64,000 nucleotides of DNA from an archaeon (GTDB taxonomy: Archaea > Nanobdellota > Nanobdellia > SCGC-AAA011-G17 > GW2011-AR17): NCBI GenBank assembly GCA_018692925.1, contig JABHLH010000016.1, positions 19,462 through 83,461 on the forward strand, read 5' to 3'. The notes under the pieces were generated by a model that was not told the DNA's origin, ran no database searches, and saw only the letters and a list, made by a program, of their open reading frames with translations. Position numbers and translations under genes: made by a program. This document shows positions 26,247 to 44,476 of this stretch, piece after piece. Each line of letters begins with the position of its first letter. Position 1 is the first letter of the stretch.

Positions 26247-27548
26247 TTACATAAACCTCATAACTTTCAAATACATTTTGTGCAATCCTTGAACAGAAGT
26301 CAAATGTTTAGCTACATAACCCCATCTTTTAGGATGAGTATAAAATTCAAACAACAATCTTTTCTGTAAAAATTTCAATTCTGAAAAAGAAATATTCTCA
26401 TCTTCAAAAATTCTATTTTTATAATAATCATAATTCTCTGTTAACTTATATTTACCTTTCATACTTTCATACAAATGTGTTTCAGGAAGTGGAGTAGTAA
26501 TTGTTGCAGTAATCTCAGTTGCATCCAAAGATTTAGCAAATTTAATAGTTTGTAAAATCTCTTCTTTAGTTTCCCCTGGAGCTCCAAGCATAATATAACA
26601 AAGACATCTAATTCCAACTTTCTCTGCCATAGCTACATCACCATGAACTTTTGAAAGATCAATATCTTTATGATAAATTTCATCTGCAACTCTTTGACTT
26701 CCAGTTTCTACACCTACATGCATAATTCTCAAACCAGCTGCATACATCATTCTCATTTCTTCTTCATTCAGTAAACCAATTCTAGAATTAATTCCCCACT
26801 GCATTTCTAATTCTTCATCAACAAGTCTTTTACAAAAAACTTTTATCCATTCTTTTCTAACAGTAAAAGTATCATCATTAAACCAAATAGCATTAATACC
26901 AAAATGATTTTTCAAATGTTTCATTTCTTCAATAACACTATCAACTGACCTAGTTCTAACACCTTTACCAAAAATCTTTTCTAAAACTGGCTGACAAAAT
27001 GTACATCTAAAAGGACATCCTCTTGAAGAAAACATATTTGTTCCTCTAACATTTGGATCAATACTATCAAAGACATGCCACAATTTGATATAATCTTCCA
27101 TATCCAATAAATCATAAGCCATAATAGGTAAATTCTCAAGATCAAATCTCTCACCTTGAATAATTTTTTCTTTACACTTACCTTTCAAAATATCCAACAT
27201 AGCAGATTCAGCTTCACCTTTCACAACAAAATCAGAAAATTCTGTTAATGTCTCAGGCCTTAGTGTAGCTTGTGGACCTCCAATAATTACTTTCTTACCT
27301 TTAGACTTTGCATACTTTGCAATTTTCTTAACATCATTTAACATTAAAGAATCACAATAAATAGCAACATAATCTGCATCAAAATCATCAATTCTTTTTC
27401 TGATATAATCCATTGTAGGATGAAAAGTTGAATCTATTAGATCTACAGAATAACCATTATTTCTCAAATGTGCTGCAATTAAAGCCAAACCACCTGGAGG
27501 ATCTCCAGTTTTATACTTCATCCTTGCAAACACTAAACTTATCTTCAT
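26247..27548 (-). CDS. B12-binding (class B) radical SAM enzyme
   Basis: An N-terminal cobalamin-binding Rossmann-like domain is followed by a CPFRCTFC (CxxxCxxC) radical SAM cluster motif. Confidence 0.85.
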   Translation of the reverse strand: MKISLVFARMKYKTGDPPGGLALIAAHLRNNGYSVDLIDSTFHPTMDYIRKRIDDFDADYVAIYCDSLMLNDVKKIAKYAKSKGKKVIIGGPQATLRPETLTEFSDFVVKGEAESAMLDILKGKCKEKIIQGERFDLENLPIMAYDLLDMEDYIKLWHVFDSIDPNVRGTNMFSSRGCPFRCTFCQPVLEKIFGKGVRTRSVDSVIEEMKHLKNHFGINAIWFNDDTFTVRKEWIKVFCKRLVDEELEMQWGINSRIGLLNEEEMRMMYAAGLRIMHVGVETGSQRVADEIYHKDIDLSKVHGDVAMAEKVGIRCLCYIMLGAPGETKEEILQTIKFAKSLDATEITATITTPLPETHLYESMKGKYKLTENYDYYKNRIFEDENISFSELKFLQKRLLFEFYTHPKRWGYVAKHLTSVQGLHKMYLKVMRFM

Positions 27549-27640: not shown

Positions 27641-28369
27641 ATGTTAAAAGAAAAACAAGATATCAAGAGTCATTACGATTCAGAAGGATTAATCAAGGGA
27701 TATGTTCAAAACAGATTTTCAAAACCTCTAGGCAAATTTTTACATGAAAGAGAAACTTCAATAGTAAACTTATATATTCAAAAAAGCAATGCAGAATCTG
27801 TATTAGATTTAGCTTGTGGCCCTGCAAGATTAACTGTAGATATTGAAACAAAAAATGGAACAGCTTTTGATAATGCAAAAAATATGTTAAGCGTTGCAAA
27901 AAAAAGACTAAAAGGTAAAAAATGGAAATTTGTTCAAGGTGACGCATTCAATTTAAAATTAAAAAATAAATTTGATTTAATTTATTCATTTAGATTCTTC
28001 AGACATTTCAACAAAGAAGACAGAAAATCACTTTTAGCAAATGTACATTCTCACTTAAATGACAATTCTATTTTCATAACAGATATGGCAAATATCAAAT
28101 TCAGAGATAGATCATTAAAACAAAGTAACGAAAGTATTGATGTTGTAGATTACAAAATTGAAAAAAAAGAATTCATTCAAGAATTAGAAGATGCTGGTTT
28201 TGAAATAATTGAAATCGATACTGTAATCAACCATTATAATTTACAAGTTAATGCATCAAGATTATATTACTTAAATTTAGATTCTGTTGCGATGGCTTTA
28301 ATTAGAGAGTTTGAAAGATATCCACCATTTGCAGCTCAAGAATTCGTATTTATAGCTAGAAAAAAATGA
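27641..28369 (+). CDS. Class I SAM-dependent methyltransferase
   Basis: Motif I is VLDLACGPARL, with an acidic post-I motif. It is the paralog of the N-terminal domain of 43061..44476. Confidence 0.7.
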   Translation: MLKEKQDIKSHYDSEGLIKGYVQNRFSKPLGKFLHERETSIVNLYIQKSNAESVLDLACGPARLTVDIETKNGTAFDNAKNMLSVAKKRLKGKKWKFVQGDAFNLKLKNKFDLIYSFRFFRHFNKEDRKSLLANVHSHLNDNSIFITDMANIKFRDRSLKQSNESIDVVDYKIEKKEFIQELEDAGFEIIEIDTVINHYNLQVNASRLYYLNLDSVAMALIREFERYPPFAAQEFVFIARKK

Positions 28370-29082
28370 AAAAAGTCCCTTCAATCAAAGAATTGAATAA
28401 ATTCGCTTGGAAATTCAAAAACAGAAAAACTGAAACTCACCTTAGAATTTTCTCTCCTTATTTTCTTTGGACTTTACTTCACACAAAGATCACTCCAAAT
28501 CAACTTACTATGTTTTGGGTTTTATTAGTAATTATCACATCACCATTTTTCTTAATCTACAATTTTTCAGTTCACATTGTTGCTAGTGCAATTATTTTAC
28601 TTTGTTTACAATTAGACATGGTTGACGGTTCTTTAGCAAGATACAAAAAACAATTCAGTAAGAAAGGAGCTATCATAGATTTCATAGGATCTTGGCTAAT
28701 GGCTATTCTTCCACAAACTTTCTTAGCTATCACATACTTCATACATACAGGAAAAACTTGGATCATTATTGCATTACCTTTCTTCTTAATTGGATTTATC
28801 ATGAAAGAGTTAATTCCATTAAAAGAAATGTTCATTTATCAAAAGAAGATTAAAGATGATAAACCTAAAGACAAAGGAAGATTACACAACATTTATTCTT
28901 TTGCAAGAAAACTAATGCTTATTGATTATTCAATTGAAATGTTATTTATCTCTATACTAATTGGAATTCCTGAATACTACATTTTATTCTATGCATTCTC
29001 TTACAACTTATATTGGATTGCAAAAACTATACATGTATTCATAAAAAAGGAAGATCTTTCTAAAGAAGTATTTTTAACTTAA
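28366..29082 (+). CDS. CDP-alcohol phosphatidyltransferase-like membrane protein
   Basis: DMVDGSLARYKKQFSKKGAIIDFIG partly matches D-G-x2-A-R-x8-G-x3-D. It has 5-6 TM helices. Its start overlaps the upstream methyltransferase gene by 4 nt. Confidence 0.5.
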   Translation: MKKVPSIKELNKFAWKFKNRKTETHLRIFSPYFLWTLLHTKITPNQLTMFWVLLVIITSPFFLIYNFSVHIVASAIILLCLQLDMVDGSLARYKKQFSKKGAIIDFIGSWLMAILPQTFLAITYFIHTGKTWIIIALPFFLIGFIMKELIPLKEMFIYQKKIKDDKPKDKGRLHNIYSFARKLMLIDYSIEMLFISILIGIPEYYILFYAFSYNLYWIAKTIHVFIKKEDLSKEVFLT

Positions 29083-31559: not shown

Positions 31560-33101
31560 TTACTTATTTTCAACTTTAATTTCATCATTATCAAGAACAT
31601 CAATCTCAGAAGTCATTTTTTCCAACCTATAGTAGATATTCTTCAAATCAGGCCTAAACAAAGACTTAGCACTTTGATCCATATAAGGCAATTTATCTAA
31701 AAGAACTTTCATCATTTTATCACTATAATATAATTCTTTCATTACAGCTCTCAAGATATTAAATTTAGTTCTTTTCTTAAACTTAAAGAAAACATTCAAA
31801 GTATCTTTAATATCTAAAACTAAACTCTTTTCTTTTATCCAAGGAGATTTATCTAAAAGATATCTATCATTCCAAGAAGAGTCAACTAAATTCCATTCTT
31901 TCATTTTTTTAGGATGGCTATACTCTCCACTTTCAACTAGCTCATCATACATTGAACCACCTGGATAAGGCCTATAAATACTTGGACCATGTAAATATAA
32001 ATTTGGATTAATTTTATACAATTCTAAAATAAATCTAAAAGTTCTCAACATATCATCTCTATTCTCTCCAGGCATTCCAATAATAAAACTAGTTCTTGGA
32101 ACAATTCCTGCTTCACCACAATCTTTTACAGCTCTCATAACACTTTCTAACTTCAAACCTTTCCTCATTTTCTTCAACATTCTATCAGAACCAGATTCAA
32201 CACCAAAAAGAATAGCTGTACCACCTAACTCTCTCATTCTTTTCAAAACATCAACTGTCAAATAATCATCATTAATATAATCAGCTCTACATTGTGAGTT
32301 CCAAGTAAATTTCAAACCCCTTCTCTCAATCTCGTCTAAAAATCTAAAGAACCTATCTTTCTTCACAAAAAACAATTCATCAATCAAATAAATATCATCA
32401 ACTTCATGCTCATTAATTAACCATTCAATTTCATCTAAAACATGATCAATATCTCTACCTTGCCATTTTCTTTGCATTGCAGAATTAATACAGAAAGTAC
32501 ATGAAAAAGGACATCCATTCCCAGAGAATACAATTCCAGTTTTAACTCTCACACCTTTTCTAAAAGGCAAACTTCTTTCAATAGGATGAAATTTATTTAT
32601 CAATTCATAATTCATTCTTGGTAACTTAGAAAGATCCATCAAACTTCTTTTATCATTAAATATTAACTCATCATTTTCTTTATACCCTAAACCTTTAATT
32701 TCACTTAATTTTTTATCTCCTCTCATTGCATGAATTAATTCTTCACAAAGTTCTTCACCATCTCCAAAACAGATATAATCAATCAACTCATGTTTCAAAG
32801 TTTGAATAGGGAATAAGATTGCATGATAACCACCAAAAATAACTTTAATCTTCGGAAATTTATCTTTAACATATTTAGCTAATTTAAGAGCTTCAGGAAT
32901 TTGTGTACTCATTGCAGAGATTCCAACATACAAAGTTTCTTCAGTAACAAAATTATCAACTGCTTCTAGATCTTTAGAACTGAAAATTAAATTAACATTA
33001 TACTCTTTAGCATCTAAGTAACTTCCAATTGAAAGCAATCCACAATTAAACTCTTCTGTTGACCCACTATGAGATGGATCTATGAATACCACATTTTCCA
33101 T
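31560..33101 (-). CDS. B12-binding (class B) radical SAM enzyme
   Basis: An N-terminal B12-binding domain is followed by a GCPFSCTFC cluster motif. Confidence 0.85.
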   Translation of the reverse strand: MENVVFIDPSHSGSTEEFNCGLLSIGSYLDAKEYNVNLIFSSKDLEAVDNFVTEETLYVGISAMSTQIPEALKLAKYVKDKFPKIKVIFGGYHAILFPIQTLKHELIDYICFGDGEELCEELIHAMRGDKKLSEIKGLGYKENDELIFNDKRSLMDLSKLPRMNYELINKFHPIERSLPFRKGVRVKTGIVFSGNGCPFSCTFCINSAMQRKWQGRDIDHVLDEIEWLINEHEVDDIYLIDELFFVKKDRFFRFLDEIERRGLKFTWNSQCRADYINDDYLTVDVLKRMRELGGTAILFGVESGSDRMLKKMRKGLKLESVMRAVKDCGEAGIVPRTSFIIGMPGENRDDMLRTFRFILELYKINPNLYLHGPSIYRPYPGGSMYDELVESGEYSHPKKMKEWNLVDSSWNDRYLLDKSPWIKEKSLVLDIKDTLNVFFKFKKRTKFNILRAVMKELYYSDKMMKVLLDKLPYMDQSAKSLFRPDLKNIYYRLEKMTSEIDVLDNDEIKVENK

Positions 33102-33189
33102 TTCCCATCTTTATTATGCCAAATTTAAATAATTATCGGTGCATTAATCTACTAAATCTTCAGAAACTTTATAAATCGTACAAAAAGGG

Positions 33190-33591
33190 ATGATAAATAT
33201 GATTGCGGAGGGAAAAGTTCTAGTTATAGACTTAGATGGTGTACTATGTAAAATAAAAAGTTCTGAACAAGAATACTCAGACTTAGAACCCATTCCAGAA
33301 GTAATTGAAAGGATCAAACTTTACAAAAAAGAAGGATTCCATATAATTATCAACACTAGTAGAAACATGCGAACTTACAAAGGTAATCTTGGAAAAATAA
33401 ATGCTAATACTCTAAAAACTATTTTCCAGTGGTTAGATCACCATAATATTCCTTATGATGAAATTCACATTGGTAAACCTTGGTGTGGTAAAGAAGGATT
33501 TTACATTGATGACAAAGCAATCAGACCTTCAGAATTTTTAAACAAGAGTTATGACGAGATAAAAGAAATTTTAGATGGAGAGAAATTATGA
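33190..33591 (+). CDS. HAD-superfamily phosphatase, small capless GmhB/PNK-phosphatase-like
   Basis: Motif I is VIDLDGVLC, motif II is NTSR, and the Lys motif is GKP. Its stop overlaps the start of the next gene (ATGA). Confidence 0.6.
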   Translation: MINMIAEGKVLVIDLDGVLCKIKSSEQEYSDLEPIPEVIERIKLYKKEGFHIIINTSRNMRTYKGNLGKINANTLKTIFQWLDHHNIPYDEIHIGKPWCGKEGFYIDDKAIRPSEFLNKSYDEIKEILDGEKL

Positions 33592-35972
33592 AAAATTTAA
33601 TTTTAATTCCGACAGCTCTAAATGTTGACAAAGAGATGCATTTAGACATTGGAGAAATTCCACCTGTTCTTGTACCAATCAGTGGAAAACCATTATTAGA
33701 TTATATTATTGAAGCTTACAACAAATTCCCTGGAGAAAAAACTTATTGCCTTCTTGTTAATGAAAACAAAGATAGAGTTAAAAAAATAATTGAAAGGAAA
33801 AAATACAAAGAGAACATAAAATTAATTGAAATTGACAATCTTAGAAGTTTAGGTTGGACTATTTTCGAAGGTTTAAGCAAAATTAATCTTTCAGAATACG
33901 ACAATTTAATTGTTAACTTTGGAGACACTCTTGTCGATGAGAGTTTTGAAACAAACAAAGATTTAGTTCTTTATGATGACTTACCTGAAACTTACAGATG
34001 GACAACTTTTGAAACTGAAAACAACAAAATAATTCAAATCAAAGATAAAATAAATACAAACGAACACAAAATCCATCATGTATTTGTAGGAATATTCCAA
34101 ATAAAAAACCCCCAATTATACTTCCAAAAAATTGAAGAAGATCCTGACAAAGGTTTTTACTCAACTTTAATGTCTTACTTAAATTCAACAAATGAATATG
34201 AAATACTAAAAACAAACAAGTGGTACGACATAGGCCACATTGACAATTATTTCCAAACAAAAAAAGATTTCATCAATTTAAGATACTTCAACACAATAAA
34301 AATTCACGACAAAAAAGGAATTTTAGAAAAAACTAGTAAACATGAAAAATTCATTGGAGAAATAAAATGGTACTTACAAATCCCTCAAGAGCTTCAATCT
34401 TACCTACCAAAAATATTTGACTATTCAATAAATCCTGACAACCCTTTCATAAAAATGGAATATTATGGTTATCCTAACCTTGGAGAAATTTACACTTTTG
34501 GGAACTACAACTTAGGAATTTGGAGCCACATTTTTGATTCAATATTATACATTCTCGACGAGATGTCAAGATACAAACTAACAATCTCTGAAGAAGAAGC
34601 TAGAAAAGCTAGAGAAGAAATATTTGTAGACAAAACAATCCAAGCTTTAGAATTAATGTCAACAAAAGAAGAATTCAAACCTTTATTTGAAAACAAAATA
34701 ACAATCAATGGACAACAATATGAATCCTTAAATTTTTACAAAAACAAAATAAAAGAACTTTGTGAAGAACACTTACTAAATGCACCAAACGAATTCAATT
34801 TAATCCATGGTGACCTTTGTACATCAAACATTCTTTATGATCCAAAAAGTAAAATTACAAAACTAATTGACCCAAGAGGAAAATTTGGCCAACACACAAC
34901 TTATGGAGATTTCAGATACGACTTAGGAAAACTAACTCACAGTTTTAATGGAAAATATGAATTTATTATTAATGACTTATTCAACTTAGAAATTTCAAAC
35001 AACAATATAACTTATGAAATGTTTACTAACGACAAACATGAGAAAATTACAACCCTTTTCAAAAAAAGAATTGAAGAAAAATATCCAACTAATAAAGAAC
35101 AAATCCAATTAATTGAAGCTTTACAATATTTAAGTATGGTTCGAATGCATTTCCCAAAAACAGAAAGACAATTTGCAATGTTAACTACAGGAATTCAATT
35201 ACTAGATCCACTAATTGAAAAAGAAAACAAAATGAACATTATTTTACCAATGGCTGGGCTTGGTTCAAGATTCACAAAAGTAGGAATAACAACTCCTAAA
35301 CCTTTAATCAAAGTAAGAGGAAAACAATTAATCAAATGGGCTTTAGATTCCATCCCTCAAAATACAGAGCACAATTTAATTTTCATAGTTAGACAAGAAC
35401 ACATTAACGAATTCAAAATAGACCAAAAACTAAAAGAGTTATTTTCAGAAAACATAACAATCATACCAATTAATCATACAACAGAAGGAGCTGCTTGTAC
35501 AGTTTTACTTGCAAAGAAACACATAAACAACAACAATCCTTTAATTATCCTAGACTGCGACATTCACTTAAAAGTTCCAAAATATTTCGAATTATTAAAA
35601 GATAAAAATATCAAAGGAATTATTCCAGTTTTCAGAGGAGAAGGTGACAAATGGAGCTTTTCAAAAACAGATGAAAATATGAGAATTCAGGAAGTAGCAG
35701 AAAAAAATAGAATCTCAGAGTTTTGTAACATGGGAATGTATTTCTTCCAACATGGAAAAGATTTTGTTTGGGCAGCTGAAGACATGATAAATAAAAATAT
35801 AAGATTCAACAACGAATTTTATATCTCTCCAGTTTTTCAACAACTAATTGATAGAGGAGACCAAATCAAAGCAGCTTTATGTACAGAAGCTTGGGGACTT
35901 GGAACACCAGAAGATGTAAAACTTTTTGAAGAAATTTATCCTAAAGAAACTACTCAGTATACTCTGCTCTAA
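33588..35972 (+). CDS. Tri-domain enzyme: nucleotidyltransferase, then APH/choline-kinase-like kinase, then nucleotidyltransferase
   Basis: The N-terminus has LVPISGKPLLDYII and FGDTLVD, like a sugar/alcohol-phosphate NTP-transferase. The middle has LIHGDLCTSNILYD and GDFRYDLGKL, an APH/ChoK catalytic loop and DFG-equivalent. The C-terminus has ILPMAGLGSRF...KPLIKVRGKQLIKWALD, a second LicC/GlmU-like nucleotidyltransferase. Confidence 0.75.
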   Translation: MKNLILIPTALNVDKEMHLDIGEIPPVLVPISGKPLLDYIIEAYNKFPGEKTYCLLVNENKDRVKKIIERKKYKENIKLIEIDNLRSLGWTIFEGLSKINLSEYDNLIVNFGDTLVDESFETNKDLVLYDDLPETYRWTTFETENNKIIQIKDKINTNEHKIHHVFVGIFQIKNPQLYFQKIEEDPDKGFYSTLMSYLNSTNEYEILKTNKWYDIGHIDNYFQTKKDFINLRYFNTIKIHDKKGILEKTSKHEKFIGEIKWYLQIPQELQSYLPKIFDYSINPDNPFIKMEYYGYPNLGEIYTFGNYNLGIWSHIFDSILYILDEMSRYKLTISEEEARKAREEIFVDKTIQALELMSTKEEFKPLFENKITINGQQYESLNFYKNKIKELCEEHLLNAPNEFNLIHGDLCTSNILYDPKSKITKLIDPRGKFGQHTTYGDFRYDLGKLTHSFNGKYEFIINDLFNLEISNNNITYEMFTNDKHEKITTLFKKRIEEKYPTNKEQIQLIEALQYLSMVRMHFPKTERQFAMLTTGIQLLDPLIEKENKMNIILPMAGLGSRFTKVGITTPKPLIKVRGKQLIKWALDSIPQNTEHNLIFIVRQEHINEFKIDQKLKELFSENITIIPINHTTEGAACTVLLAKKHINNNNPLIILDCDIHLKVPKYFELLKDKNIKGIIPVFRGEGDKWSFSKTDENMRIQEVAEKNRISEFCNMGMYFFQHGKDFVWAAEDMINKNIRFNNEFYISPVFQQLIDRGDQIKAALCTEAWGLGTPEDVKLFEEIYPKETTQYTLL

Positions 35973-37407
35973 AAATTAATCTTGGGTTTTTCTTAATAAT
36001 CTTAATAACATCCTTTGCAGCTTTCTTAATACCATATCCTTTTGCATGATGATAAAGAACTTTAGCCTTATGTGTATATTCTTTCAAAAATAATTTAGGA
36101 TTAGTTCTTCTATAAGCACAATAAGCTTTATTAATTTCTTCTTCAGCTTCTCTTTTCACAACTAAAAGTTCATCATCAGACATATCAGAAAGATTAATTA
36201 AAATTTCATAAGTACCAGTTAGATTTCTTAAATATTCAACTTCATCAGTAATTCTACCATCTTCCACACACATTCTATAAAACTCAGAACCTGGCAATGG
36301 AGTACTAATAAAAAATTGTGTTACAGGTTGCACATGCAATCTTTTACAAAAATTAATTGTTTCTCTTACAGTTTCTCTAGTTTCTTTAGGGTTTCCAATC
36401 ATCATAAGAACTCCAGGAATCAAACCAGCTTTAACTGTCAATCTCAAAGCTCTCTCATTTAATTCTACAGTAGATTCTTTATTGATACTATCCAAAATAG
36501 TTTGGCTTCCAGATTCAATACCATAAGCAACATAATAACATCCTGAAGCTTTCATAGCTTTCAGAACTTCAAAATCAACATGATTAACTCTACCATTACA
36601 TTTCCATCTTATTTTCAAAGGCTTAATTTTTTCACAAAGCTCTAACATCCTTTTCCTAGACATCATAACTAACTCATCTTCAAAATCAATAACTTCAACT
36701 TTATACTTATCTTTCAAAATTTTAATTTCTTCAATAACGTTATCCACTGACCTCATATTTACAACTGGAAAATTCTTTGAACAAAAATGACAATTGAACG
36801 GACAACCTCTTGTAGTAATCACACACATTCTTCTTGAACTGTTTGCAATACCTAACCTTGTTGCACCAATATATTTTTCAACATCAAATAAATCCCAAGC
36901 TGGGAAAGGCACTTCATCAATTTTATGTATTTCAGAAATAGATTTAGTAACAAAAACTTTTCCATCTTTCAAATAAGCCATAGATTCAACTTCAGAAGGA
37001 TCTTCTAAATTTTCTAAGAGTTTAGGCATAACATATTCTCCCCAACCTAAAACACAAAAATCAACATCCATTGTTTCTAAAACTTGTTTATAATTATATT
37101 TTGCTAATGCTCCCCCAATTAAAATTTTTCTTTCAGGATGCATCCCTTTAACTTCTTTAATAAACCACTCCATATACTTAAAATGTGGAGACATTGCAGT
37201 AATCCCCATAATATCATATTCAATATCTTTTAGTTTTGAAAGTGTTTCTTCTTTAGAATAATGATTAACCCAAGCATCAAAAATTTCAACTTCATGACCC
37301 TTTTCTTTTAGAACAGCAGCTACATAAGCTAAGCCCAAAGGAAATCTTTGCGCCTCCCTGTCCTTATCCCCATGAAAATTTGGAGGTTGTACCAAAAGAA
37401 CCTTCAT
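35950..37407 (-). CDS. B12-binding (class B) radical SAM enzyme
   Basis: An N-terminal B12-binding domain (MKVLLVQPPNF...) is followed by a GCPFNCHFC cluster motif. Confidence 0.85.
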   Translation of the reverse strand: MKVLLVQPPNFHGDKDREAQRFPLGLAYVAAVLKEKGHEVEIFDAWVNHYSKEETLSKLKDIEYDIMGITAMSPHFKYMEWFIKEVKGMHPERKILIGGALAKYNYKQVLETMDVDFCVLGWGEYVMPKLLENLEDPSEVESMAYLKDGKVFVTKSISEIHKIDEVPFPAWDLFDVEKYIGATRLGIANSSRRMCVITTRGCPFNCHFCSKNFPVVNMRSVDNVIEEIKILKDKYKVEVIDFEDELVMMSRKRMLELCEKIKPLKIRWKCNGRVNHVDFEVLKAMKASGCYYVAYGIESGSQTILDSINKESTVELNERALRLTVKAGLIPGVLMMIGNPKETRETVRETINFCKRLHVQPVTQFFISTPLPGSEFYRMCVEDGRITDEVEYLRNLTGTYEILINLSDMSDDELLVVKREAEEEINKAYCAYRRTNPKLFLKEYTHKAKVLYHHAKGYGIKKAAKDVIKIIKKNPRLIFRAEYTE

Positions 37408-38194: not shown

Positions 38195-39418
38195 ATGAAA
38201 ATAGGAATTGCAATAAGCCTTTATGATAAATTTGACGAACTTGCTATTCTAATTGATATTATCAAAAAAAATTGGAAAGGAGATTACATTATTTCAGTTT
38301 GCAGTAACCATGAAAATCCAGAACCATTCTTAAAAGATTTAGACATTGATATTTTCACAAAAGGTGACGATATAATTGTTACAAAAGATATGCCTTGGAT
38401 GAGAAATAGTATCAACATGAGATCCAGAGTTTCTGATTGTATAAAAAAATCTTGTACTGCTGCAATAAATTCTGGAGCAGATTATGTAATGCACTTACAC
38501 ACAGATGCTTGGCCATTAAAAGAAAAAGAGATTCTTAAAATAATTGAACATATGAAAGAAAACAAAAAAACATTTGCTTTCAGAGGTTTAGGTTTCTCAA
38601 AATACAGACATGATTGCCCAGTTGGACACTTAGATGACATGTTCTTCATTTTCGAATCAAAGACTGCAAAGAAAAACAGATACTTTGATTTTAACACATT
38701 ATCCTTACTACCTCACAAACTTTCAATTCATGGTGTATTATCTTTAATTGTTTTAGGTAGAATAGGTTTAGAAAATGCTTACCATTATGATAACTTAAAA
38801 AATAATTATTTCTGGGACGGGAAAAAACATCCAGGTGACATTGAAAGAGTAAGGCCTTCTATTTATGAGCCAAACTTAGGATTGCTACACATTGACACAC
38901 CTACTTTCCCAAAAAATTATGGTAAAGCTGTTCAAGCAATGTACTTATACGAAAATAAATTAACAAAAGGTAAAACAATTAAAAAATTCCTTGAAAAAAA
39001 TCTAATGGACAAACAAAAGTTAATCAGAGCTTTAGATATTTATGAAAGGAAGTTAGATGATAGTTTAAGATTAAGAGGATTTCCAATTTTAAACTTCGGA
39101 AGATTTGGTAGAACTTTTACAAAGAAAGAAAAATATTTGAATGCGCCTTTCAAGAAAAAATTAAATTACTGGTTTGGTACAATGTCTAGAGAAATTTGGG
39201 ACAGAACAATTAAGAAAAAAATTGGAGTTGATTTAATTCCAGATTATTCTTTCTGGCCTGAAGATTTAGAAGTAATTTTAGCAAAAGCAACATTTGCAGA
39301 AGATTATCCTGATTCCTCTTTATTATGGTTCAAAGACAAGAAAAAGAACAAATTAAGAATAAAATCCTTACCAAAATTCTACAAAAAATTCTATAAATAC
39401 AACTATAAGGGAATGTAA
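38195..39418 (+). CDS. Hypothetical protein, possibly a glycan-modifying enzyme
   Basis: 407 aa and soluble. Conserved-looking His/Asp clusters (HLHTDAWP, HLDDMFF) are present. No family recognised. Confidence 0.4.
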   Translation: MKIGIAISLYDKFDELAILIDIIKKNWKGDYIISVCSNHENPEPFLKDLDIDIFTKGDDIIVTKDMPWMRNSINMRSRVSDCIKKSCTAAINSGADYVMHLHTDAWPLKEKEILKIIEHMKENKKTFAFRGLGFSKYRHDCPVGHLDDMFFIFESKTAKKNRYFDFNTLSLLPHKLSIHGVLSLIVLGRIGLENAYHYDNLKNNYFWDGKKHPGDIERVRPSIYEPNLGLLHIDTPTFPKNYGKAVQAMYLYENKLTKGKTIKKFLEKNLMDKQKLIRALDIYERKLDDSLRLRGFPILNFGRFGRTFTKKEKYLNAPFKKKLNYWFGTMSREIWDRTIKKKIGVDLIPDYSFWPEDLEVILAKATFAEDYPDSSLLWFKDKKKNKLRIKSLPKFYKKFYKYNYKGM

Positions 39419-40018: not shown

Positions 40019-41842
40019 GTGAACGAAATTAAAGAGGCTATAATTCTAGCAGCAGGATCTAGCCGTAGAATGGGATTGCTTTGTGAGGGAAAACATAAAT
40101 CTTTATTGAAGTATAAAGAGAATACTATCTTAGCTAGAATTATCAATCAACTAAAGAAGGCTAATATTGAGAAATTAGTAATTGTTGTTGGATTCGCAAA
40201 GGATAAAATCATTGAAGAAACAAAAAACATTCAAGATATTGAAATTAAAATTGTAGAAAATCCAAGATATTATGAGGATACAAACATATATTCTATGAAA
40301 CTTGCTTTAGACCACATAGAAAACCCATTTATAATTGTTGAAGCAGATATGATCACTGAAGATGCATTAATCCAATATTTAGCTGGTTCTGACTTTGAAG
40401 GAAAATCTACTTGGCTTACCAAAGGAAAATTTAATGATATGCAATATGGTGGGATATTAAGATCTGATGAATTAGGAAACATAAATGATATTAGAATTGT
40501 TCCTGAATATAGAGATGAATATCAAGAGCACACAAAATTAACAGGTTTAATGAGAGTTGGTCCAAATGAAGTTGATTTATTCAAAAAACTTGTAAACATT
40601 TATGCAGAAAAAACTTTCAAACAATATTTTTTAATTCCTTGGATTGAAAACTTAACACATTTACCTTGTATTGAAGGTGATGCAAGTCAATACAAATTTT
40701 CAACTTTCAATTCACCAGAAGATTACTATAAAGCTATTGAACTAGAATTTGATGAAGAACAAGCACAAGAAAAAGAAATAAATTTCATAGAAACTGAAAG
40801 ATTAAAACATATAGAAAACTTTGACGAAGATAGAGTACAAATATTAATCCAAAAAATTGAAAGAGATGGTGCTTGGTTAAAACCTATTTACATTGAAAAA
40901 AATCACAACTTAGTTCTTGATGGACAACACAGATTACAAGCTGCAATAAGAATGGGAATTAAAAAAATCCCTACACAAGGTTTTGATTATGAAGATGTAA
41001 AAGTTTGGACTTTAAGAAAAGAAGAATATGTTGACATTCCAACTGTAATTGCAAGAGCAAATCAAGGAGACATATATCCTTACAAAACAGTAAAACATAA
41101 TTTCCCAAGAGTGATCAGTGAATGCTACATACCTCTAGAAAATCTAAAAGGAAATATTGTAATTGAAGAAAGAAAAGAAAAATCTAAAAGATTAATTATT
41201 TTAGCAGCAGGCCAAGGTTTCAAAATTCATGGTTTAAACAAACTTTTCATAAAAGATCCAAAAAATAAAGAAATTTTAATTGAAAAATATATTAGACTTT
41301 TCAAAGATTATGAAATTACAGTAGTTCTAGGACACAAAGCTCTACATGTAATGCAAGAATACCCTCAACTAAATTATGTTTACAATGATCAGTGGCGAAT
41401 TACTGGAAATAGTTATAGTTTAAGTTTAGCTTTAGATGATAGACCTACAATCGTAACATCATCAGATTTAATTTTCGATGAAGAAATGTTAAATTTAATT
41501 GAATCTTCACCAGACAACTCAGTATTTGTATTTCAATCTGAAAACAAAGGTTACAACACAGTAAGATGCAAATCTGAAAATGGAAAACTAAAAGAAATGT
41601 TCTTTGGAGAACAATATTCAAATGAACCTGAAACAACAGGAATTTACAAAATTTCAAATCCAGATTTACTTAGGGAATGGAAAAAAAGATGTTCAAATAA
41701 TAAAAATGTTTTCGCAGGAATAAATTTACCTTTAGAAAATCTTAAAATTGATATAATTGACATTAAAAATACATTCTTCCATGAAATAAACACTCCATTA
41801 GACTACATTAATTTAATTGAGAAAACAAAAAATGGATCTTAG
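40019..41842 (+). CDS. Nucleotidyltransferase, then ParB/Srx-like domain, then nucleotidyltransferase (fusion protein, GTG start)
   Basis: The N-terminus AIILAAGSSRRMG is a MobA/IspD/LicC-like GT-A nucleotidyltransferase P-loop. The middle domain has DGQHRLQAAIRMG, giving the DGxHR and GxxRxxA motifs of the ParB/sulfiredoxin fold. The C-terminus LIILAAGQGFKIHG is a second nucleotidyltransferase. Confidence 0.7.
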   Translation: MNEIKEAIILAAGSSRRMGLLCEGKHKSLLKYKENTILARIINQLKKANIEKLVIVVGFAKDKIIEETKNIQDIEIKIVENPRYYEDTNIYSMKLALDHIENPFIIVEADMITEDALIQYLAGSDFEGKSTWLTKGKFNDMQYGGILRSDELGNINDIRIVPEYRDEYQEHTKLTGLMRVGPNEVDLFKKLVNIYAEKTFKQYFLIPWIENLTHLPCIEGDASQYKFSTFNSPEDYYKAIELEFDEEQAQEKEINFIETERLKHIENFDEDRVQILIQKIERDGAWLKPIYIEKNHNLVLDGQHRLQAAIRMGIKKIPTQGFDYEDVKVWTLRKEEYVDIPTVIARANQGDIYPYKTVKHNFPRVISECYIPLENLKGNIVIEERKEKSKRLIILAAGQGFKIHGLNKLFIKDPKNKEILIEKYIRLFKDYEITVVLGHKALHVMQEYPQLNYVYNDQWRITGNSYSLSLALDDRPTIVTSSDLIFDEEMLNLIESSPDNSVFVFQSENKGYNTVRCKSENGKLKEMFFGEQYSNEPETTGIYKISNPDLLREWKKRCSNNKNVFAGINLPLENLKIDIIDIKNTFFHEINTPLDYINLIEKTKNGS

Positions 41843-43070
41843 AACAATTACTATTGGAATTCCTATTAACATAGAATCAGATACATTATTACATCTAGAA
41901 TCTAAATTAAAAAATTTTCTTGAAGAAACAACAATAGCATTAGCAACAGAAAATATTAATATAAGAACTTTCAGAATAAATTTAACTCCGGTTACAAATA
42001 AAGATTCAAATTTAAACTCACAAAAAATAATAGGAAAAATAGAAACTTTCTCAAACTTTGCAGAAAAATTAAACATTAGGTGGATTAACATCCCTTATGA
42101 TTTAACAGAGAACCCAAAAGAATTATCTGAACTTGCTTTTACAATATTAAAAAGATATCCTAAAACTTTTTCAAATTTAATTGTTGCAAAAGATAAAAAT
42201 ATTTCTTACAACGCAATCCCAATAGCTAGTAAATTCATAAAAGATGTTTCAAAATTAGACAACTCTGGATACAATAATTTTAGAGTAGGGGTTTCTTGCA
42301 ACATCAAAGCAAATACTCCATTCTTCCCATACACTTACAGTTCAGAGGAATTAGGAATCTCAACAGGGTTAGAGTTACCAAAAGAATTCATAAAGATAAT
42401 CAACTCTTCAGAGAATAGAGATCTAATCTCATTAAGAGAAGAAATAATAACAAAGATTTCTCCTGAGGTAAACAAAATAAACAATATCCTTTCAGTTTTA
42501 GCAAAAAAACATTTCATTAAATACAATGGGATTGATTTTTCCTTAGCTCCTTATCCTGAAAAAGGTAGCAGTGTTGCAGAATTAATTGAGCTTTTAGGTT
42601 TAGAACAACTTGGCAGCAATGGAACATTGTTCTTAACTTCATACTTAACTGACATATTAAAAGAAATACAAAAAAGAAACAACACTCCAACAACAGGCTT
42701 CAATGGTGTAATGTTTTCTTTATTAGAAGATGAACAACTAGGCTTAAGAAACAACAACAAGTTATTTTCAATTGATTCATTAATTTCATATTCAGCAGTT
42801 TGCGGATGTGGTTTAGACATGATTCCTTTACCAGGAGATATTTTCGAAGAAGAGCTTAACTCAATAATCTTAGATGTAGCTGCCTTATCAACAACCTTAG
42901 ACAAACCTTTAGGAGTAAGAGTATTACCAATTCCAACAAAGCAAGAAAATGAATTCACAACCTTTAACATGGATTTTTTATTCAACACAAGGGTCAAAAA
43001 ACCTAAAAACTTAAGTTTATCAAACAGATTATTAACAAATACAAAATTTTCATATTTAAAATGGCAATAG
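41817..43070 (+). CDS. UPF0210 (DUF711) family protein
   Basis: MDLRTITIGIPI matches the UPF0210 N-terminal DIRTITMGISL. C-terminal CGCGLDMIPLP and GVRVLPIP match SVGLDMIAIP and RIIP of the family. The true start may be the Met at 41832. Confidence 0.7.
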   Translation: MRKQKMDLRTITIGIPINIESDTLLHLESKLKNFLEETTIALATENINIRTFRINLTPVTNKDSNLNSQKIIGKIETFSNFAEKLNIRWINIPYDLTENPKELSELAFTILKRYPKTFSNLIVAKDKNISYNAIPIASKFIKDVSKLDNSGYNNFRVGVSCNIKANTPFFPYTYSSEELGISTGLELPKEFIKIINSSENRDLISLREEIITKISPEVNKINNILSVLAKKHFIKYNGIDFSLAPYPEKGSSVAELIELLGLEQLGSNGTLFLTSYLTDILKEIQKRNNTPTTGFNGVMFSLLEDEQLGLRNNNKLFSIDSLISYSAVCGCGLDMIPLPGDIFEEELNSIILDVAALSTTLDKPLGVRVLPIPTKQENEFTTFNMDFLFNTRVKKPKNLSLSNRLLTNTKFSYLKWQ

Positions 43071-44476
43071 ATTTGAAGGAAGTAAAAAACTTTTGGGAAA
43101 AGCGAGCAGAACAACATAGTGACAACCAAGGTATTACTAACTTAGAAGAAAATAATAAATTAAGAAAATTAAAAACAGAGTTAGAAGAAAATAAAGTTGA
43201 TGAATATCTTCCTCAATTACAAAACAAAACAATTCTAGATTTAGCTGGAGGATATGGTAGATGGGCATTTAGATTTACAAAAAAAGCAAAAGAAGTACAT
43301 GTTGTAGACTATTGTTATGATTTAATTGCTTTAGGAAAAAAGAAATCTAAAGAACAAGGAATAAACAACATCAAATATTTTCAAGCATCAGCTCAGGATT
43401 ATGATAGTAAAACTAAATATGATATTATTTTCATCTCTGGTCTTTTAATTTACTTAAACGATGAAGACCTAAAAACTTTAGGAGAAAAGATTAGACAATA
43501 TTCTCATGAAAACACAAAAGTCATTTTAAGAGATGGAACTGGTATCAAAGGAAGATTTGAAATTAACAGAAGATTCTCTGAAGCTTTACAAACTTATTAT
43601 AGCGCAACTTACAGAACTCCAGAACAATACATTTCTTTCTTCAAAAGCATTGGTTTTGAAATTGTAAAACAAGACAATATGTTTGAAGAAGGTTGTGAAT
43701 TAAATAAATTCCCTGAAACAAGATTAAAAATTTACAAATTTAATAAAAAAACTACAAAAAAAGAAAAGAAAAAGCTTTCATTAAAAGAAATCAGAGAAGG
43801 TAAACATATCAAAGAAGGATTATACACAGACATTCTAAGAGTCCCTCATGTTACACTTACATACTTAATTGTTCACGCAATCAAAGACACAAAGATTACT
43901 CCAAACCAAGTAACTTTATTCAGTATGATTTTACTATTAATTGCAACATATTTCTATGCTGGTGGAACTTATGTATATGCTTTAATTGCTTCTTTACTTT
44001 ACTATTTATCTTTCGTTTTCGACACTGTTGATGGAAATTTAGCAAGACAAAAAGAGATGTGTTCACCTCTTGGAGGCTGGTATGATAAAATAGCTGACAG
44101 AATAATGAATCCAATTTTATTCTTTGCAATAGCTTGGGGTATTTACTTAAACAATCCTTCAGTTTATGTTTGGATTTGGACTTTCACAGCTTTTGCTGTA
44201 TTAGAATTCTCTGTAATAGTACAATATAATTTTAGAGTAATGTTTAATTTTGGAATGGACGAAGTAAAAAAGGAAAGAAAGAAAAGAGGATGGCTAAAAG
44301 AATTTATGTTAAACGACTTTTTCTTATGTCACAGTATAATTCTATTTAGTATTTTTGGCATCTTAGAATACTACATGATATTCTTCACACTATATGGAGG
44401 ATTATTTGACATTGCAATGGTTACAGTAATGACATACAAAGCTAAAAAACATCTCAAAAATGAAAACAGACCTTAA
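43061..44476 (+). CDS. Fusion of a class I SAM methyltransferase (N-terminal) to a CDP-alcohol phosphatidyltransferase (C-terminal, polytopic)
   Basis: N-terminal motif I is ILDLAGGYGRW. The C-terminus has a perfect CDP-OH-PT signature, DTVDGNLARQKEMCSPLGGWYDKIAD (D-G-x2-A-R-x8-G-x3-D-x3-D), followed by TM helices. Confidence 0.8.
   Translation: MAIDLKEVKNFWEKRAEQHSDNQGITNLEENNKLRKLKTELEENKVDEYLPQLQNKTILDLAGGYGRWAFRFTKKAKEVHVVDYCYDLIALGKKKSKEQGINNIKYFQASAQDYDSKTKYDIIFISGLLIYLNDEDLKTLGEKIRQYSHENTKVILRDGTGIKGRFEINRRFSEALQTYYSATYRTPEQYISFFKSIGFEIVKQDNMFEEGCELNKFPETRLKIYKFNKKTTKKEKKKLSLKEIREGKHIKEGLYTDILRVPHVTLTYLIVHAIKDTKITPNQVTLFSMILLLIATYFYAGGTYVYALIASLLYYLSFVFDTVDGNLARQKEMCSPLGGWYDKIADRIMNPILFFAIAWGIYLNNPSVYVWIWTFTAFAVLEFSVIVQYNFRVMFNFGMDEVKKERKKRGWLKEFMLNDFFLCHSIILFSIFGILEYYMIFFTLYGGLFDIAMVTVMTYKAKKHLKNENRP

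What the first reader, a model, noticed from the sequence alone, without database searches (positions are those of the whole stretch)
33190..35972. HAD phosphatase translationally coupled to a three-domain NTase-APH/ChoK kinase-NTase enzyme
The kinase core (HGDLCTSNILYD, GDFRYDLG) belongs to the aminoglycoside/choline/sugar kinase fold. It is sandwiched between two distinct nucleotidyltransferase domains. A small GmhB-like HAD phosphatase gene overlaps its start (ATGA). A single polypeptide predicted to both phosphorylate and NMP-activate a substrate, with two NTase domains, is unusual. It suggests either a bis-activated substrate or a regulatory duplicate.
Basis: partly seen in the sequence, partly recalled or inferred. 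Interest (0 to 1): 0.65.

Follow-up and report, generated by a model that had tools for sequence, protein, structure and literature searches.

The report
Fused archaeal fructose-branch sugar-activation cassette
These two overlapping archaeal genes are a rare fused version of a widespread phosphatase + kinase + nucleotidyltransferase cassette that bacteria need to put fructose side-branches on capsules, and whose chemistry (probably making a nucleotide-activated fructose) has never been worked out.

Summary
A 133-aa HAD phosphatase ORF overlaps (ATGA) a 794-aa ORF built of an NTase-like domain, an APH-type kinase and a canonical NTase. The architecture is not an orphan. It is a fusion of a conserved three-gene cassette: a ~550-aa NTase-like+kinase protein, a ~130-aa HAD (TIGR01689, EcbF/BcbF) and a ~240-aa NTase (PDB 4EVW type). 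That cassette was found in 470 species representatives, with all three modules in 69 of 80 loci examined. Published K4 delta-kfoE primers map exactly around the E. coli ortholog of the first two domains. KfoE loss abolishes capsule fructosylation, as does loss of bcbE or bcbG in P. multocida. In V. cholerae the cassette, including 4EVW, sits in the LPS-core cluster next to WavE. The kinase and the C-terminal NTase keep all catalytic residues. The N-terminal NTase-like domain is a diverged paralog that has lost the NTP-binding loop and lysine. Best reading: a pathway for a nucleotide-activated fructose (Fru-6-P to bisphosphate to Fru-2-P to NDP-Fru). The sugar and the step order are inferred, not shown. 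The fusion itself is rare and recurrent.

The parts
33190..33591 (+). HAD phosphatase, EcbF/BcbF family (TIGR01689), cap-less, 133 aa. Motifs: I D14-x-D16, II T56/S57, III K96, IV D107-D108. The start may be the ATG at 33199 (130 aa).
   Evidence: 173.2 bits against cutoff 162; 100% identical archaeal entries of 130 and 133 aa; motifs; 50-53% identity to the Veillonella and E. coli K4 cassette HADs.
33588..33591 (+). ATGA stop/start overlap between the HAD gene and the fused ORF.
   Evidence: sequence ...AAATTATGAAAAAT....
33588..35972 (+). 794-aa fused ORF: NTase-like domain + APH-type kinase + NTase. It equals a KfoE-type protein fused to a 4EVW-type NTase.
   Evidence: full-length model pLDDT 91.1, pTM 0.82; same ORF in independent assembly L090.
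33588..34292 (+). NTL domain (residues 1-235). Sugar-phosphate nucleotidylyltransferase fold without the G-x-G-x-R loop or catalytic Lys. Invariant D113, W138, G168, W212-x-D214-x-G216-H217, R232, N235; K154 is nearly invariant.
   Evidence: conservation; pLDDT 93.5; Foldseek: HddC, 4EVW, PntC, MurU, LicC; hhalign against the NT2 family, 95.4%.
34293..35225 (+). APH/ChoK-fold small-molecule kinase domain (residues ~236-546). Invariant K248, E258, H407-G408-D409, N414, D428-P-R-G431.
   Evidence: APH hit in 40 of 84 members.
35232..35972 (+). NT2 domain (residues 549-794). Canonical NDP-sugar pyrophosphorylase of the 4EVW type. It keeps its own former start Met (M549). Motifs: MAGLGSRF 555-562, PKPL 570-573, D658, E705-K706.
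   Evidence: 54.3 bits; 4EVW 2.4e-23; 29-32% identity to stand-alone NT2 genes; TM 0.82 to 4EVW.
33168..33175 (+). TATA-like box TTTATAAA, about 24-31 nt upstream of the ATG at 33199. Possible promoter for a leaderless HAD/fusion transcript. Read from sequence only.
   Evidence: sequence. This is inference from the archaeal promoter consensus and was not tested.

Best explanation
The HAD gene and the 794-aa ORF together are a compact archaeal version of a conserved sugar-activation cassette. Elsewhere the cassette is three genes: a TIGR01689 HAD phosphatase, a KfoE/BcbE-type protein (NTase-like domain + APH-type kinase), and a 4EVW-type NDP-sugar pyrophosphorylase (NT2). Here the last two adjacent genes have fused, with the NT2 start Met kept at residue 549. 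In bacteria the cassette is required for adding beta-D-fructofuranose side-branches to surface glycans. Proposed mechanism, inferred by analogy with the GmhA/HddA/GmhB/HddC heptose pathway: (1) the kinase phosphorylates the anomeric O-2 of fructose-6-phosphate to give fructose-2,6-bisphosphate; (2) the cap-less HAD removes the 6-phosphate; (3) NT2 condenses fructose-2-phosphate with an NTP to give NDP-fructofuranose; (4) a separate transferase (WavE-family or KfoD-like in bacteria, unidentified in this window) adds the sugar to the glycan made by the surrounding island. The N-terminal NTase-like domain is a degenerate paralog of NT2. It can no longer bind NTP in the canonical way but keeps the sugar-phosphate/metal half-site, so it most likely acts as the substrate-binding or scaffolding module of the kinase. 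Shown here: module identities, catalytic-residue conservation, cassette conservation, orthology to kfoE, and the genetic link to fructose. Inferred: the sugar in this archaeon, the order of steps, the nucleotide used, and the role of NTL.
For: Cassette: Veillonella has a 552-aa NTL-kinase gene, then a HAD (50% identity), then an NT2 gene (32% identity). 470 relatives were found among GTDB species representatives. 69 of 80 loci carry all three modules adjacent, in three gene orders. Where the TIGR01689 HAD is missing, a HAD_2-type or Hydrolase_3-type HAD sits beside the kinase gene instead, so the phosphatase step is integral. Rosetta-stone fusions exist: NTL-KIN-NT2 (window, P0001-3), NT2-NTL-KIN (P0373) and NT2-KIN (P0452, P0458). 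Fructose link: published K4 delta-kfoE primers map with 0 mismatches at L087 10304-10353 and 12699-12748, bracketing exactly the NTL-kinase ORF, which is flanked by the HAD and NT2 genes in the same order as the window. Deleting kfoE gives unfructosylated chondroitin (PMC7429809, PMC8858990). P. multocida bcbE and bcbG mutants lose the fructose branch, and BcbF gives TIGR01689 its name (PMC13552107). In V. cholerae, HAD, NTL-kinase (E=7e-52), 4EVW and WavE lie together in the LPS-core cluster. WavE-family genes lie immediately next to the cassette in 17 of the 80 scanned loci, WavE-like genes also occur in two E. coli loci, and the cassette itself is in four E. coli surface-glycan loci. Catalytic competence: invariant kinase residues, the NT2 signature and all four HAD motifs. 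Step order: a bcbF mutant could not be obtained, whereas bcbE and bcbG mutants could. This fits a toxic bisphosphate intermediate if the phosphatase acts after the kinase. Context: the window is a surface-glycan island with a flippase and GT2, GT4 and GT-C transferases.
Against: No biochemistry exists for any member. The held literature has no nucleotide-fructose pathway and calls KfoE a 'fructosyltransferase' on phenotype alone. Identity between the archaeal and enterobacterial NTL-kinase is only 25-28%, so the sugar could differ. No WavE-like or KfoD-like transferase is detectable in the window. The assignments BcbE = NTL-kinase and BcbG = NT2 rest on gene order and names, because I could not obtain the Pasteurella sequences. 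Fructose in the V. cholerae core, and the K52 type of locus L086, come from my own memory and are not verified here. The strongly conserved NTL domain has no demonstrated role. Ketose donors such as CMP-Kdo are normally made without a kinase step, so an NDP-ketose would be unusual chemistry.
Confidence: 0.55

Rival explanations
1. Same three enzymes but a salvage-type order, as in MupP/AmgK/MurU. The HAD first dephosphorylates a sugar phosphate (for example Fru-6-P) to the free sugar, the APH-type kinase then phosphorylates the anomeric hydroxyl, and NT2 makes the NDP-sugar.
For: MupP (HAD), AmgK (APH-fold anomeric kinase) and MurU (NTase) are a known trio acting in this order (PMC5371407). 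MurU is among the structural neighbours. The Levybacteria locus L012 has only kinase + NT2, with no HAD or NTL, as expected if the free sugar can feed the kinase directly.
Against: A phosphatase acting first would make its loss phenotypically equal to loss of the kinase, yet bcbF mutants could not be obtained while bcbE mutants could. The HAD is a cap-less type resembling GmhB and PNKP-type enzymes that act on bisphosphorylated or bulky substrates (family knowledge). Hydrolysing abundant Fru-6-P to free fructose and then re-phosphorylating it is wasteful.
Confidence: 0.2
2. The KfoE-type part is itself the fructosyltransferase, as the K4 literature names it. The NTase-like N-terminal domain would use its retained sugar-phosphate/metal site to transfer fructose from an activated donor to the glycan, with the kinase and NT2 supplying that donor.
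For: KfoE is called a fructosyltransferase (PMC8858990, PMC7429809). NTL carries invariant residues typical of an active site (D113, D214, H217, R232, N235). NTase and GT-A folds are related. No dedicated transferase is recognizable in the window.
Against: The name rests on a deletion phenotype only, and any pathway enzyme would give the same phenotype. The top structural neighbours of NTL are all NTases, not glycosyltransferases. NT2-kinase fusions exist in which a canonical NTase replaces NTL. WavE-family, KfoD-like or other unassigned genes lie directly beside the cassette in many loci and are better transferase candidates.
Confidence: 0.12
3. Same pathway logic but a different sugar in this archaeon, for example another ketose or furanose or a hexose. 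The family would be substrate-diverse and only the proteobacterial members would handle fructose.
For: Identity to the bacterial NTL-kinase and NT2 is low (25-34%). The family spans many phyla and glycan contexts. One relative is fused to a RibB (ribulose-5-P-binding) domain. Adjacent transferase types vary between loci.
Against: The HAD is 50-53% identical between the archaeon and E. coli K4 and scores above the TIGR01689 cutoff. The same residues are invariant across all 84 aligned family members, which argues for one conserved substrate.
Confidence: 0.25
4. One reading: both NTase domains are active and the enzyme doubly activates a substrate (bis-NMP/NDP) such as choline, ethanolamine, heptose or GlcNAc.
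For: There are two NTase-fold domains in one chain. LicC (choline-P cytidylyltransferase) and HddC (heptose) are among the structural neighbours.
Against: NTL lacks the G-x-G-x-R loop and the Lys that bind NTP phosphates, in every member. In most organisms NT2 is a separate protein. The genetics point to fructose. The GmhB and choline-kinase models score far below their cutoffs.
Confidence: 0.03

Closest known systems
E. coli K4 kfo region 2: HAD gene, kfoE, and the downstream 241-aa gene (the flanking genes are, from my memory, kfoI/orf3 and kfoH/orf1)
   Same: Same three modules in the same order (HAD, then NTL-kinase, then NT2). The HAD is 50% identical, NT2 34%, and the kinase about 28%. 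The catalytic residues are the same. kfoE is defined here by mapping the published deletion primers.
   Different: In K4 these are three separate genes in a bacterial group 2 capsule locus. In the window the kinase protein and NT2 form one polypeptide, in an archaeal glycan island with no kps genes and no KfoD-like neighbour.
P. multocida BcbE/BcbF/BcbG (and EcbE/F/G)
   Same: BcbF is the founding member of TIGR01689, which the window HAD matches above cutoff. bcbE and bcbG mutants lose the capsule's fructose branch (PMC13552107).
   Different: I could not verify the BcbE and BcbG sequences. The match to NTL-kinase and NT2 is inferred from the E-F-G gene order, which mirrors the Firmicute order NTL-kinase, HAD, NT2.
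V. cholerae LPS-core (wav) cluster genes, including PDB 4EVW and WavE
   Same: HAD, NTL-kinase (E=7e-52) and NT2 (=4EVW) appear in the window's order. The window's NT2 domain superposes on 4EVW with TM 0.82.
   Different: The genes are separate, and a WavE-family gene follows directly. No WavE is present in the window.
GDP-D-glycero-alpha-D-manno-heptose pathway (GmhA, HddA, GmhB, HddC)
   Same: Same logic of anomeric kinase, then HAD phosphatase acting on a sugar bisphosphate, then NTase. HddC is the top structural neighbour of NTL.
   Different: HddA is a GHMP kinase, not APH-fold. The HAD here is not GmhB (14.5 bits against a 149.6 cutoff). The resemblance is one of working logic, not family membership.
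MupP/AmgK/MurU and bifunctional kinase-NTases (Fkp, LicA/LicC-type)
   Same: An APH-fold sugar kinase works with a sugar-1-P NTase and a HAD phosphatase, and kinase-NTase fusions are known.
   Different: The order of steps may differ. Neither system has an extra degenerate NTase-like domain. There is no significant sequence similarity beyond the fold.

Membership tests
TIGR01689 EcbF/BcbF capsule biosynthesis phosphatase (HAD superfamily) | Whole-protein score above NCBIfam's curated cutoff | tested here: met
   173.2 bits against a cutoff of 162, E=2e-51, covering profile positions 2-123 of 126.
TIGR01689 EcbF/BcbF capsule biosynthesis phosphatase (HAD superfamily) | HAD catalytic motifs I-IV (DxD, S/T, K, DD) | tested here: met
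   D14-L-D16, T56/S57, K96, D107-D108. They align with the Veillonella and E. coli homologs.
   TIGR00213 scores 14.5 bits against 149.6, and NF006506 scores 17.1 against 178.
APH/ChoK-fold small-molecule kinases (PF01636) | Pfam gathering score | tested here: inconclusive
   The window protein scores 20.5 bits against 23.2. 40 of 84 family members match at E<=0.01, best 4.5e-8.
APH/ChoK-fold small-molecule kinases (PF01636) | Catalytic H-x-D-x4-N loop, Mg-binding Asp, ATP-binding Lys and Glu pair | tested here: met
   H407-G-D409-x4-N414, D428, K248 and E258 are invariant in 84 sequences.
Sugar-phosphate nucleotidylyltransferases (PF00483): C-terminal domain | Gathering score and the G-x-G-(T/S)-R...PK signature | tested here: met
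   54.3 bits against 21.2. G557-L-G559-S-R561, K571, D658, E705-K706. 4EVW at E=2.4e-23 and TM 0.82.
Sugar-phosphate nucleotidylyltransferases (PF00483): N-terminal domain | NTase alpha/beta fold | tested here: met
   Foldseek probability 1.00 and TM about 0.7 to HddC, 4EVW, MurU, LicC and RmlA. hhalign 95.4% to the NT2 family.
Sugar-phosphate nucleotidylyltransferases (PF00483): N-terminal domain | NTP-binding G-x-G-(T/S)-R loop and catalytic Lys | tested here: not met
   The equivalent positions are L11, V13, K15 (not conserved) and P26. The motifs are absent in all aligned members. It should not be filed as an active NTase.
KfoE-type fructose-branch cassette (HAD + NTL-kinase + NT2) | Homology of all three modules and their adjacency | tested here: met
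KfoE-type fructose-branch cassette (HAD + NTL-kinase + NT2) | Requirement for fructofuranose addition to a glycan | not testable with these tools
   Known only from genetics in E. coli K4 and P. multocida (PMC7429809, PMC13552107). The glycan of this archaeon is unknown.
   No Hexapep hits. DSSP of the models shows alpha/beta Rossmann-like domains.

The most novel reading that the evidence does not exclude
The cassette makes a nucleotide sugar not yet described in prokaryotes, NDP-beta-D-fructofuranose, through fructose-2,6-bisphosphate as a biosynthetic (not regulatory) intermediate. 'KfoE fructosyltransferase' would then really be an anomeric fructose-6-phosphate 2-kinase guided by a pseudo-NTase domain, and fructofuranosylated surface glycans would extend to DPANN-like archaea and many gut Firmicutes.
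Probability: 0.3. Interest if true: 0.8.

Novelty: new variant of a known kind. Interest (0 to 1): 0.6.

Why it matters
As far as I could find, the activated donor used to attach acid-labile fructofuranose branches in E. coli K4, P. multocida B/E and other glycans has not been identified. Knowing it matters for vaccine antigens and for industrial chondroitin production, where kfoE is routinely deleted. This analysis recasts KfoE as an NTase-like/kinase protein working with a dedicated phosphatase and NTase. It shows the cassette is widespread (hundreds of species, several E. coli K- and O-antigen loci, archaea). It also offers a naturally fused two-protein system (HAD + kinase-NTase) well suited to one-pot reconstitution of the pathway. 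In addition, it flags systematic mis-annotation: NT2 homologs are labelled 'GT2 family' and KfoE-type proteins 'hypothetical' or 'nucleotidyltransferase'.

Tried and rejected
1. The first literature search on bcbF/ecbF returned unrelated acronyms. 'WavE' collided with the word 'wave'. Two searches for a citable statement that the V. cholerae core contains fructose found nothing usable. kfoH and kfoI do not occur in the held library.

2. PMC87851, the older P. multocida cap-locus paper, is not held.

4. A Foldseek search with the full-length model was swamped by NTase hits, so structural neighbours of the kinase domain were not obtained. Profile-versus-PDB sequence search gave only weak APH hits.

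5. I tried to retrieve C. jejuni HS1.08 (849 aa) through its published primer in metagenome contigs. The single hit was a chance match, with no long ORF and no second primer site. P0373, which is also 849 aa, is an NT2-NTL-kinase fusion with a non-Campylobacter composition, so the equal length is a coincidence.

6. I searched the window for a WavE-like, KfoD-like or other cassette-adjacent transferase. There was no significant hit: the best was the 407-aa ORF at 38195-39418 against WavE, at hhalign probability 3%.

7. The first hhalign of A2 against A5 aligned the NT2 parts of the fused homologs instead of NTL. I redid it on trimmed columns.

8. Iterating the KfoD-like search pulled in hexapeptide acetyltransferases through the multidomain L086 protein, so I disregarded it.

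9. The sigma-70 promoter and intrinsic-terminator scan is not meaningful for an archaeon and showed no enrichment.
Full report
**1. The observation**

The window has a 133-aa ORF at 33190-33591 (+) and a 794-aa ORF at 33588-35972 (+). They overlap by ATGA. The quoted kinase motifs are present: HGDLCTSN at residues 407-414 and GDFRYDLGK at 440-448.

Pfam and NCBIfam place a canonical nucleotidyltransferase at residues ~550-775 (PF00483, 54.3 bits against a cutoff of 21.2). They give a weak APH-type kinase signal at ~387-450 (20.5 bits against 23.2) and a weak GlmU-N-like signal at 23-191.

The small protein is a HAD. It is not GmhB (14.5 bits against 149.6). It is a member of TIGR01689, 'EcbF-BcbF capsule biosynthesis phosphatase' (173.2 bits against 162), and has all four HAD motifs.

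**2. It is a fusion of a conserved cassette**

Homology search shows that the common form of the large protein is ~550 aa and covers only the first two domains. Only three hits of ~800 aa cover all three.

In Veillonella atypica the 552-aa gene is followed by a 134-aa HAD (50% identical to the window's) and a 238-aa NTase (32% identical to the window's C-terminal domain).

A scan of one genome per species found 470 relatives. Of the 80 best loci, 69 carry all three modules side by side, in three gene orders:

- NTL-kinase, HAD, NT2 in Firmicutes.
- HAD, NTL-kinase, NT2 in Woesearchaeota, deltaproteobacteria, enterobacteria and others. This is the window's order.
- NT2, NTL-kinase, HAD in haloarchaea.

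Where the TIGR01689 HAD is absent, a HAD_2-type gene (Selenomonadales, L054 and L060) or a Hydrolase_3-type gene (fused Methanosarcinales locus L008) sits next to the kinase gene. This is non-orthologous displacement, and it makes a phosphatase step integral to the pathway.

In many loci with the window's gene order, the NTL-kinase stop overlaps or directly abuts the NT2 start (for example L022 and L073, by 4 nt). The window protein still carries the former NT2 start (K-M549-N-I-I-L-P-M-A-G).

Fused forms are scattered among unfused relatives in a 20-member subclade. P0001 is 64% identical to the unfused P0004. Fusion or fission has therefore recurred.

Among 1.84 billion cluster representatives, only P0002 and P0003 are NTL-KIN-NT2 fusions within the top 150. 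Other combinations also exist:

- NT2-NTL-KIN (P0373).
- NT2-KIN without NTL (P0452, P0458).
- Tandem NT2-like domains (P0485).
- RibB-NTL-KIN (P0505).

**3. What each module is**

*Kinase.* K248, E258, H407-G408-D409, N414 and D428-P-R-G are invariant in 84 aligned sequences. 40 of 84 members hit Pfam APH. It is an active APH/ChoK-fold small-molecule kinase with no close solved relative.

*C-terminal NT2.* It has the canonical G557-x-G559-S-R561, K571, D658 and E705-K706. It matches PDB 4EVW, a structural-genomics 'NDP-sugar pyrophosphorylase' from V. cholerae, at E=2.4e-23 and TM 0.82.

*N-terminal NTL.* The AlphaFold model is confident (pLDDT 93.5). Its Foldseek neighbours are all sugar-phosphate NTases: HddC, 4EVW, PntC, IPCT, UGPases, MurU and LicC.

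Profile-profile alignment with the NT2 family gives 95.4% probability and E=5.9e-9. It shows that the NTP-binding glycine loop with its Arg (NT2 G557/G559/R561) and the catalytic Lys (K571) correspond to non-conserved L11/V13/K15 and to P26. The metal and sugar-phosphate half-site is retained: D113 matches D658, D153-K154 matches E705-K706, and W212-x-D214-x-G216-H217 is present.

These losses hold for every family member. NTL is therefore a diverged NT2 paralog that cannot be a canonical NTase, yet it is under strong constraint. NT2-kinase fusions, in which a canonical NTase takes NTL's place, suggest an ancestral bifunctional NTase-kinase followed by duplication and degeneration (inference).

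*Full-length model.* It is confident (pLDDT 91.1, pTM 0.82). No PDB entry covers more than one domain.

**4. The link to fructose**

The P. multocida type B capsule carries a fructose side chain. bcbE and bcbG mutants lose it. BcbE, BcbF and BcbG had been predicted to act in fructose addition, and a bcbF mutant could not be obtained (PMC13552107). BcbF gives its name to the family the window's HAD belongs to.

In E. coli, a DNA probe found the cassette in several surface-glycan loci.

- Locus L087 is the K4 kfo region: a galE-like kfoA, the 686-aa GT2 polymerase, IS elements and a UDP-Glc dehydrogenase. It contains a HAD, an IS1-split ~525-aa ORF and a 241-aa gene, matching the window's HAD (50%), NTL+kinase and NT2 (34%).
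- The published K4 delta-kfoE deletion primers (PMC7429809) map with zero mismatches to L087 10304-10353 and 12699-12748, which bracket exactly that ORF. kfoE, whose deletion yields unfructosylated chondroitin (PMC7429809; PMC8858990 citing Liu 2014), is therefore the ortholog of the window's first two domains.
- Two further kps loci (L085, L086) and an O-antigen locus (L088) also carry the triad.

In V. cholerae, a protein 97% identical to 4EVW lies in the LPS-core cluster, arranged as HAD, NTL-kinase (E=7e-52), 4EVW, WavE. From my own knowledge, not verified here, the V. cholerae core contains fructose.

WavE-family genes (PF07507) lie immediately next to the cassette in 17 of the 80 scanned loci, and WavE-like genes also occur in two E. 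coli loci. KfoD-like genes and two other unassigned families occupy that position elsewhere. These are the likeliest transferases.

**5. Mechanism**

No paper in the held library describes a bacterial nucleotide-fructose or assigns biochemistry to these proteins. KfoE's name 'fructosyltransferase' rests on phenotype alone.

The enzyme set is an anomeric-type kinase, a cap-less HAD and a sugar-1-P-type NTase. It mirrors the GDP-heptose route (HddA, GmhB, HddC). I therefore propose: Fru-6-P, then Fru-2,6-P2 (kinase), then Fru-2-P (HAD), then NDP-fructofuranose (NT2), then transfer by a separate enzyme. NTL would serve as the kinase's substrate-binding or scaffold module.

The failure to obtain bcbF mutants fits a toxic intermediate accumulating downstream of the kinase. 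This is weak support for that order over the MupP/AmgK/MurU-like order.

The identity of the sugar in this archaeon, the nucleotide used, the step order and NTL's role are all inferences.

**6. Context and organism**

The HAD is 100% identical to an NCBI '[archaeon]' MAG protein. The closest cassette relatives include Woesearchaeota.

The window (~29% GC) is a surface-glycan island. It contains:

- A Wzx-like flippase.
- GT2, GT4 and PMT_2-type GT-C transferases.
- GDP-mannose dehydratase.
- Methyltransferases.
- CDP-alcohol phosphotransferases.
- Three B12-radical SAM enzymes.

No WavE-like or KfoD-like transferase was detectable in it.

**7. Verdict**

The feature is a rare fused archaeal variant of a known but biochemically uncharacterized cassette. 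Its value is that it reframes KfoE-type proteins and makes the open question of the fructofuranosyl donor directly testable.

Noticed in passing
L091 (ENA ERZ4201025), equivalent to window ~34684: A second assembly of the same archaeal locus is identical over the aligned ~500-nt stretch around the split, except for one T-to-G change (TTA to TGA). This truncates the 794-aa ORF at Leu366, inside the kinase domain. It could be a natural null allele or a sequencing error.
   Followed up: partly
window 40019-44476: A second activation system lies in the same island. It comprises a 607-aa ORF with an N-terminal MobA-like NTase and a SerK-like stretch (residues 253-346), then DUF711, then a methyltransferase fused to a CDP-alcohol phosphotransferase. 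Another CDP-alcohol phosphotransferase lies at 28366-29082.
   Followed up: partly
window 26247-27548, 31560-33101, 35950-37407: There are three B12-binding radical SAM genes, two of which flank the HAD/fusion unit. One is divergent upstream. The other is convergent downstream and overlaps the 794-aa ORF's 3' end by 23 nt. Their best NCBIfam similarities (BchE, HpnJ, Sden_1168 P-methyltransferase) all fall far below cutoffs. They are not conserved neighbours of the cassette elsewhere.
   Followed up: partly
P0505 (788 aa, representative library): A relative has a complete RibB (DHBP synthase, 245 bits) domain fused in front of the NTL-kinase. RibB binds the ketose phosphate ribulose-5-P.
   Followed up: partly
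P0452, P0458, P0373, P0485: Alternative architectures exist: NT2-kinase fusions lacking NTL, a permuted NT2-NTL-kinase fusion (849 aa), and a protein with two tandem NT2-like domains. They suggest that NTL arose from an NT2-type NTase fused to the kinase.
   Followed up: yes
L088 (E. coli TW14425, NZ_CP127265.1 4031824-4050089): An O-antigen locus with 'O78 family' wzy and wzx contains a WavE-family gene plus HAD, NTL-kinase and NT2. This predicts an acid-labile (possibly fructofuranosyl) substituent that classical mild-acid O-antigen preparations might have missed.
   Followed up: no
L012 5105-6805 (Candidatus Levybacteria MAG): A minimal version has a 316-aa kinase-only protein followed by NT2. 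No NTL domain and no HAD are detectable in the 13-kb contig.
   Followed up: partly
window 33102-33189: The 88-nt divergent intergenic region holds two TATA-like boxes: TTTAAATA at 33124-33131 and TTTATAAA at 33168-33175. The second lies about 24-31 nt upstream of the ATG at 33199. This suggests a leaderless transcript and a 130-aa HAD, which is the length NCBI annotates.
   Followed up: no
L085, L086, L087, L088 annotations; one search hit names: RefSeq/PGAP labels NT2-type NTases (4EVW homologs) as 'glycosyltransferase family 2 protein'. It labels KfoE-type proteins as 'hypothetical protein' or 'nucleotidyltransferase family protein'. This looks like systematic mis-annotation or under-annotation.
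   Followed up: partly
L087 10936-11699: In E. coli strain WP4-W18-ESBL-09, the K4-type kfoE ortholog is interrupted by an IS1 element. This predicts an unfructosylated K4 capsule in that strain.
   Followed up: no
window 1-64000: GC skew is negative over most of the window (cumulative -6.2 over 64 kb), with most genes in the 14-38 kb stretch on the minus strand.
   Followed up: no
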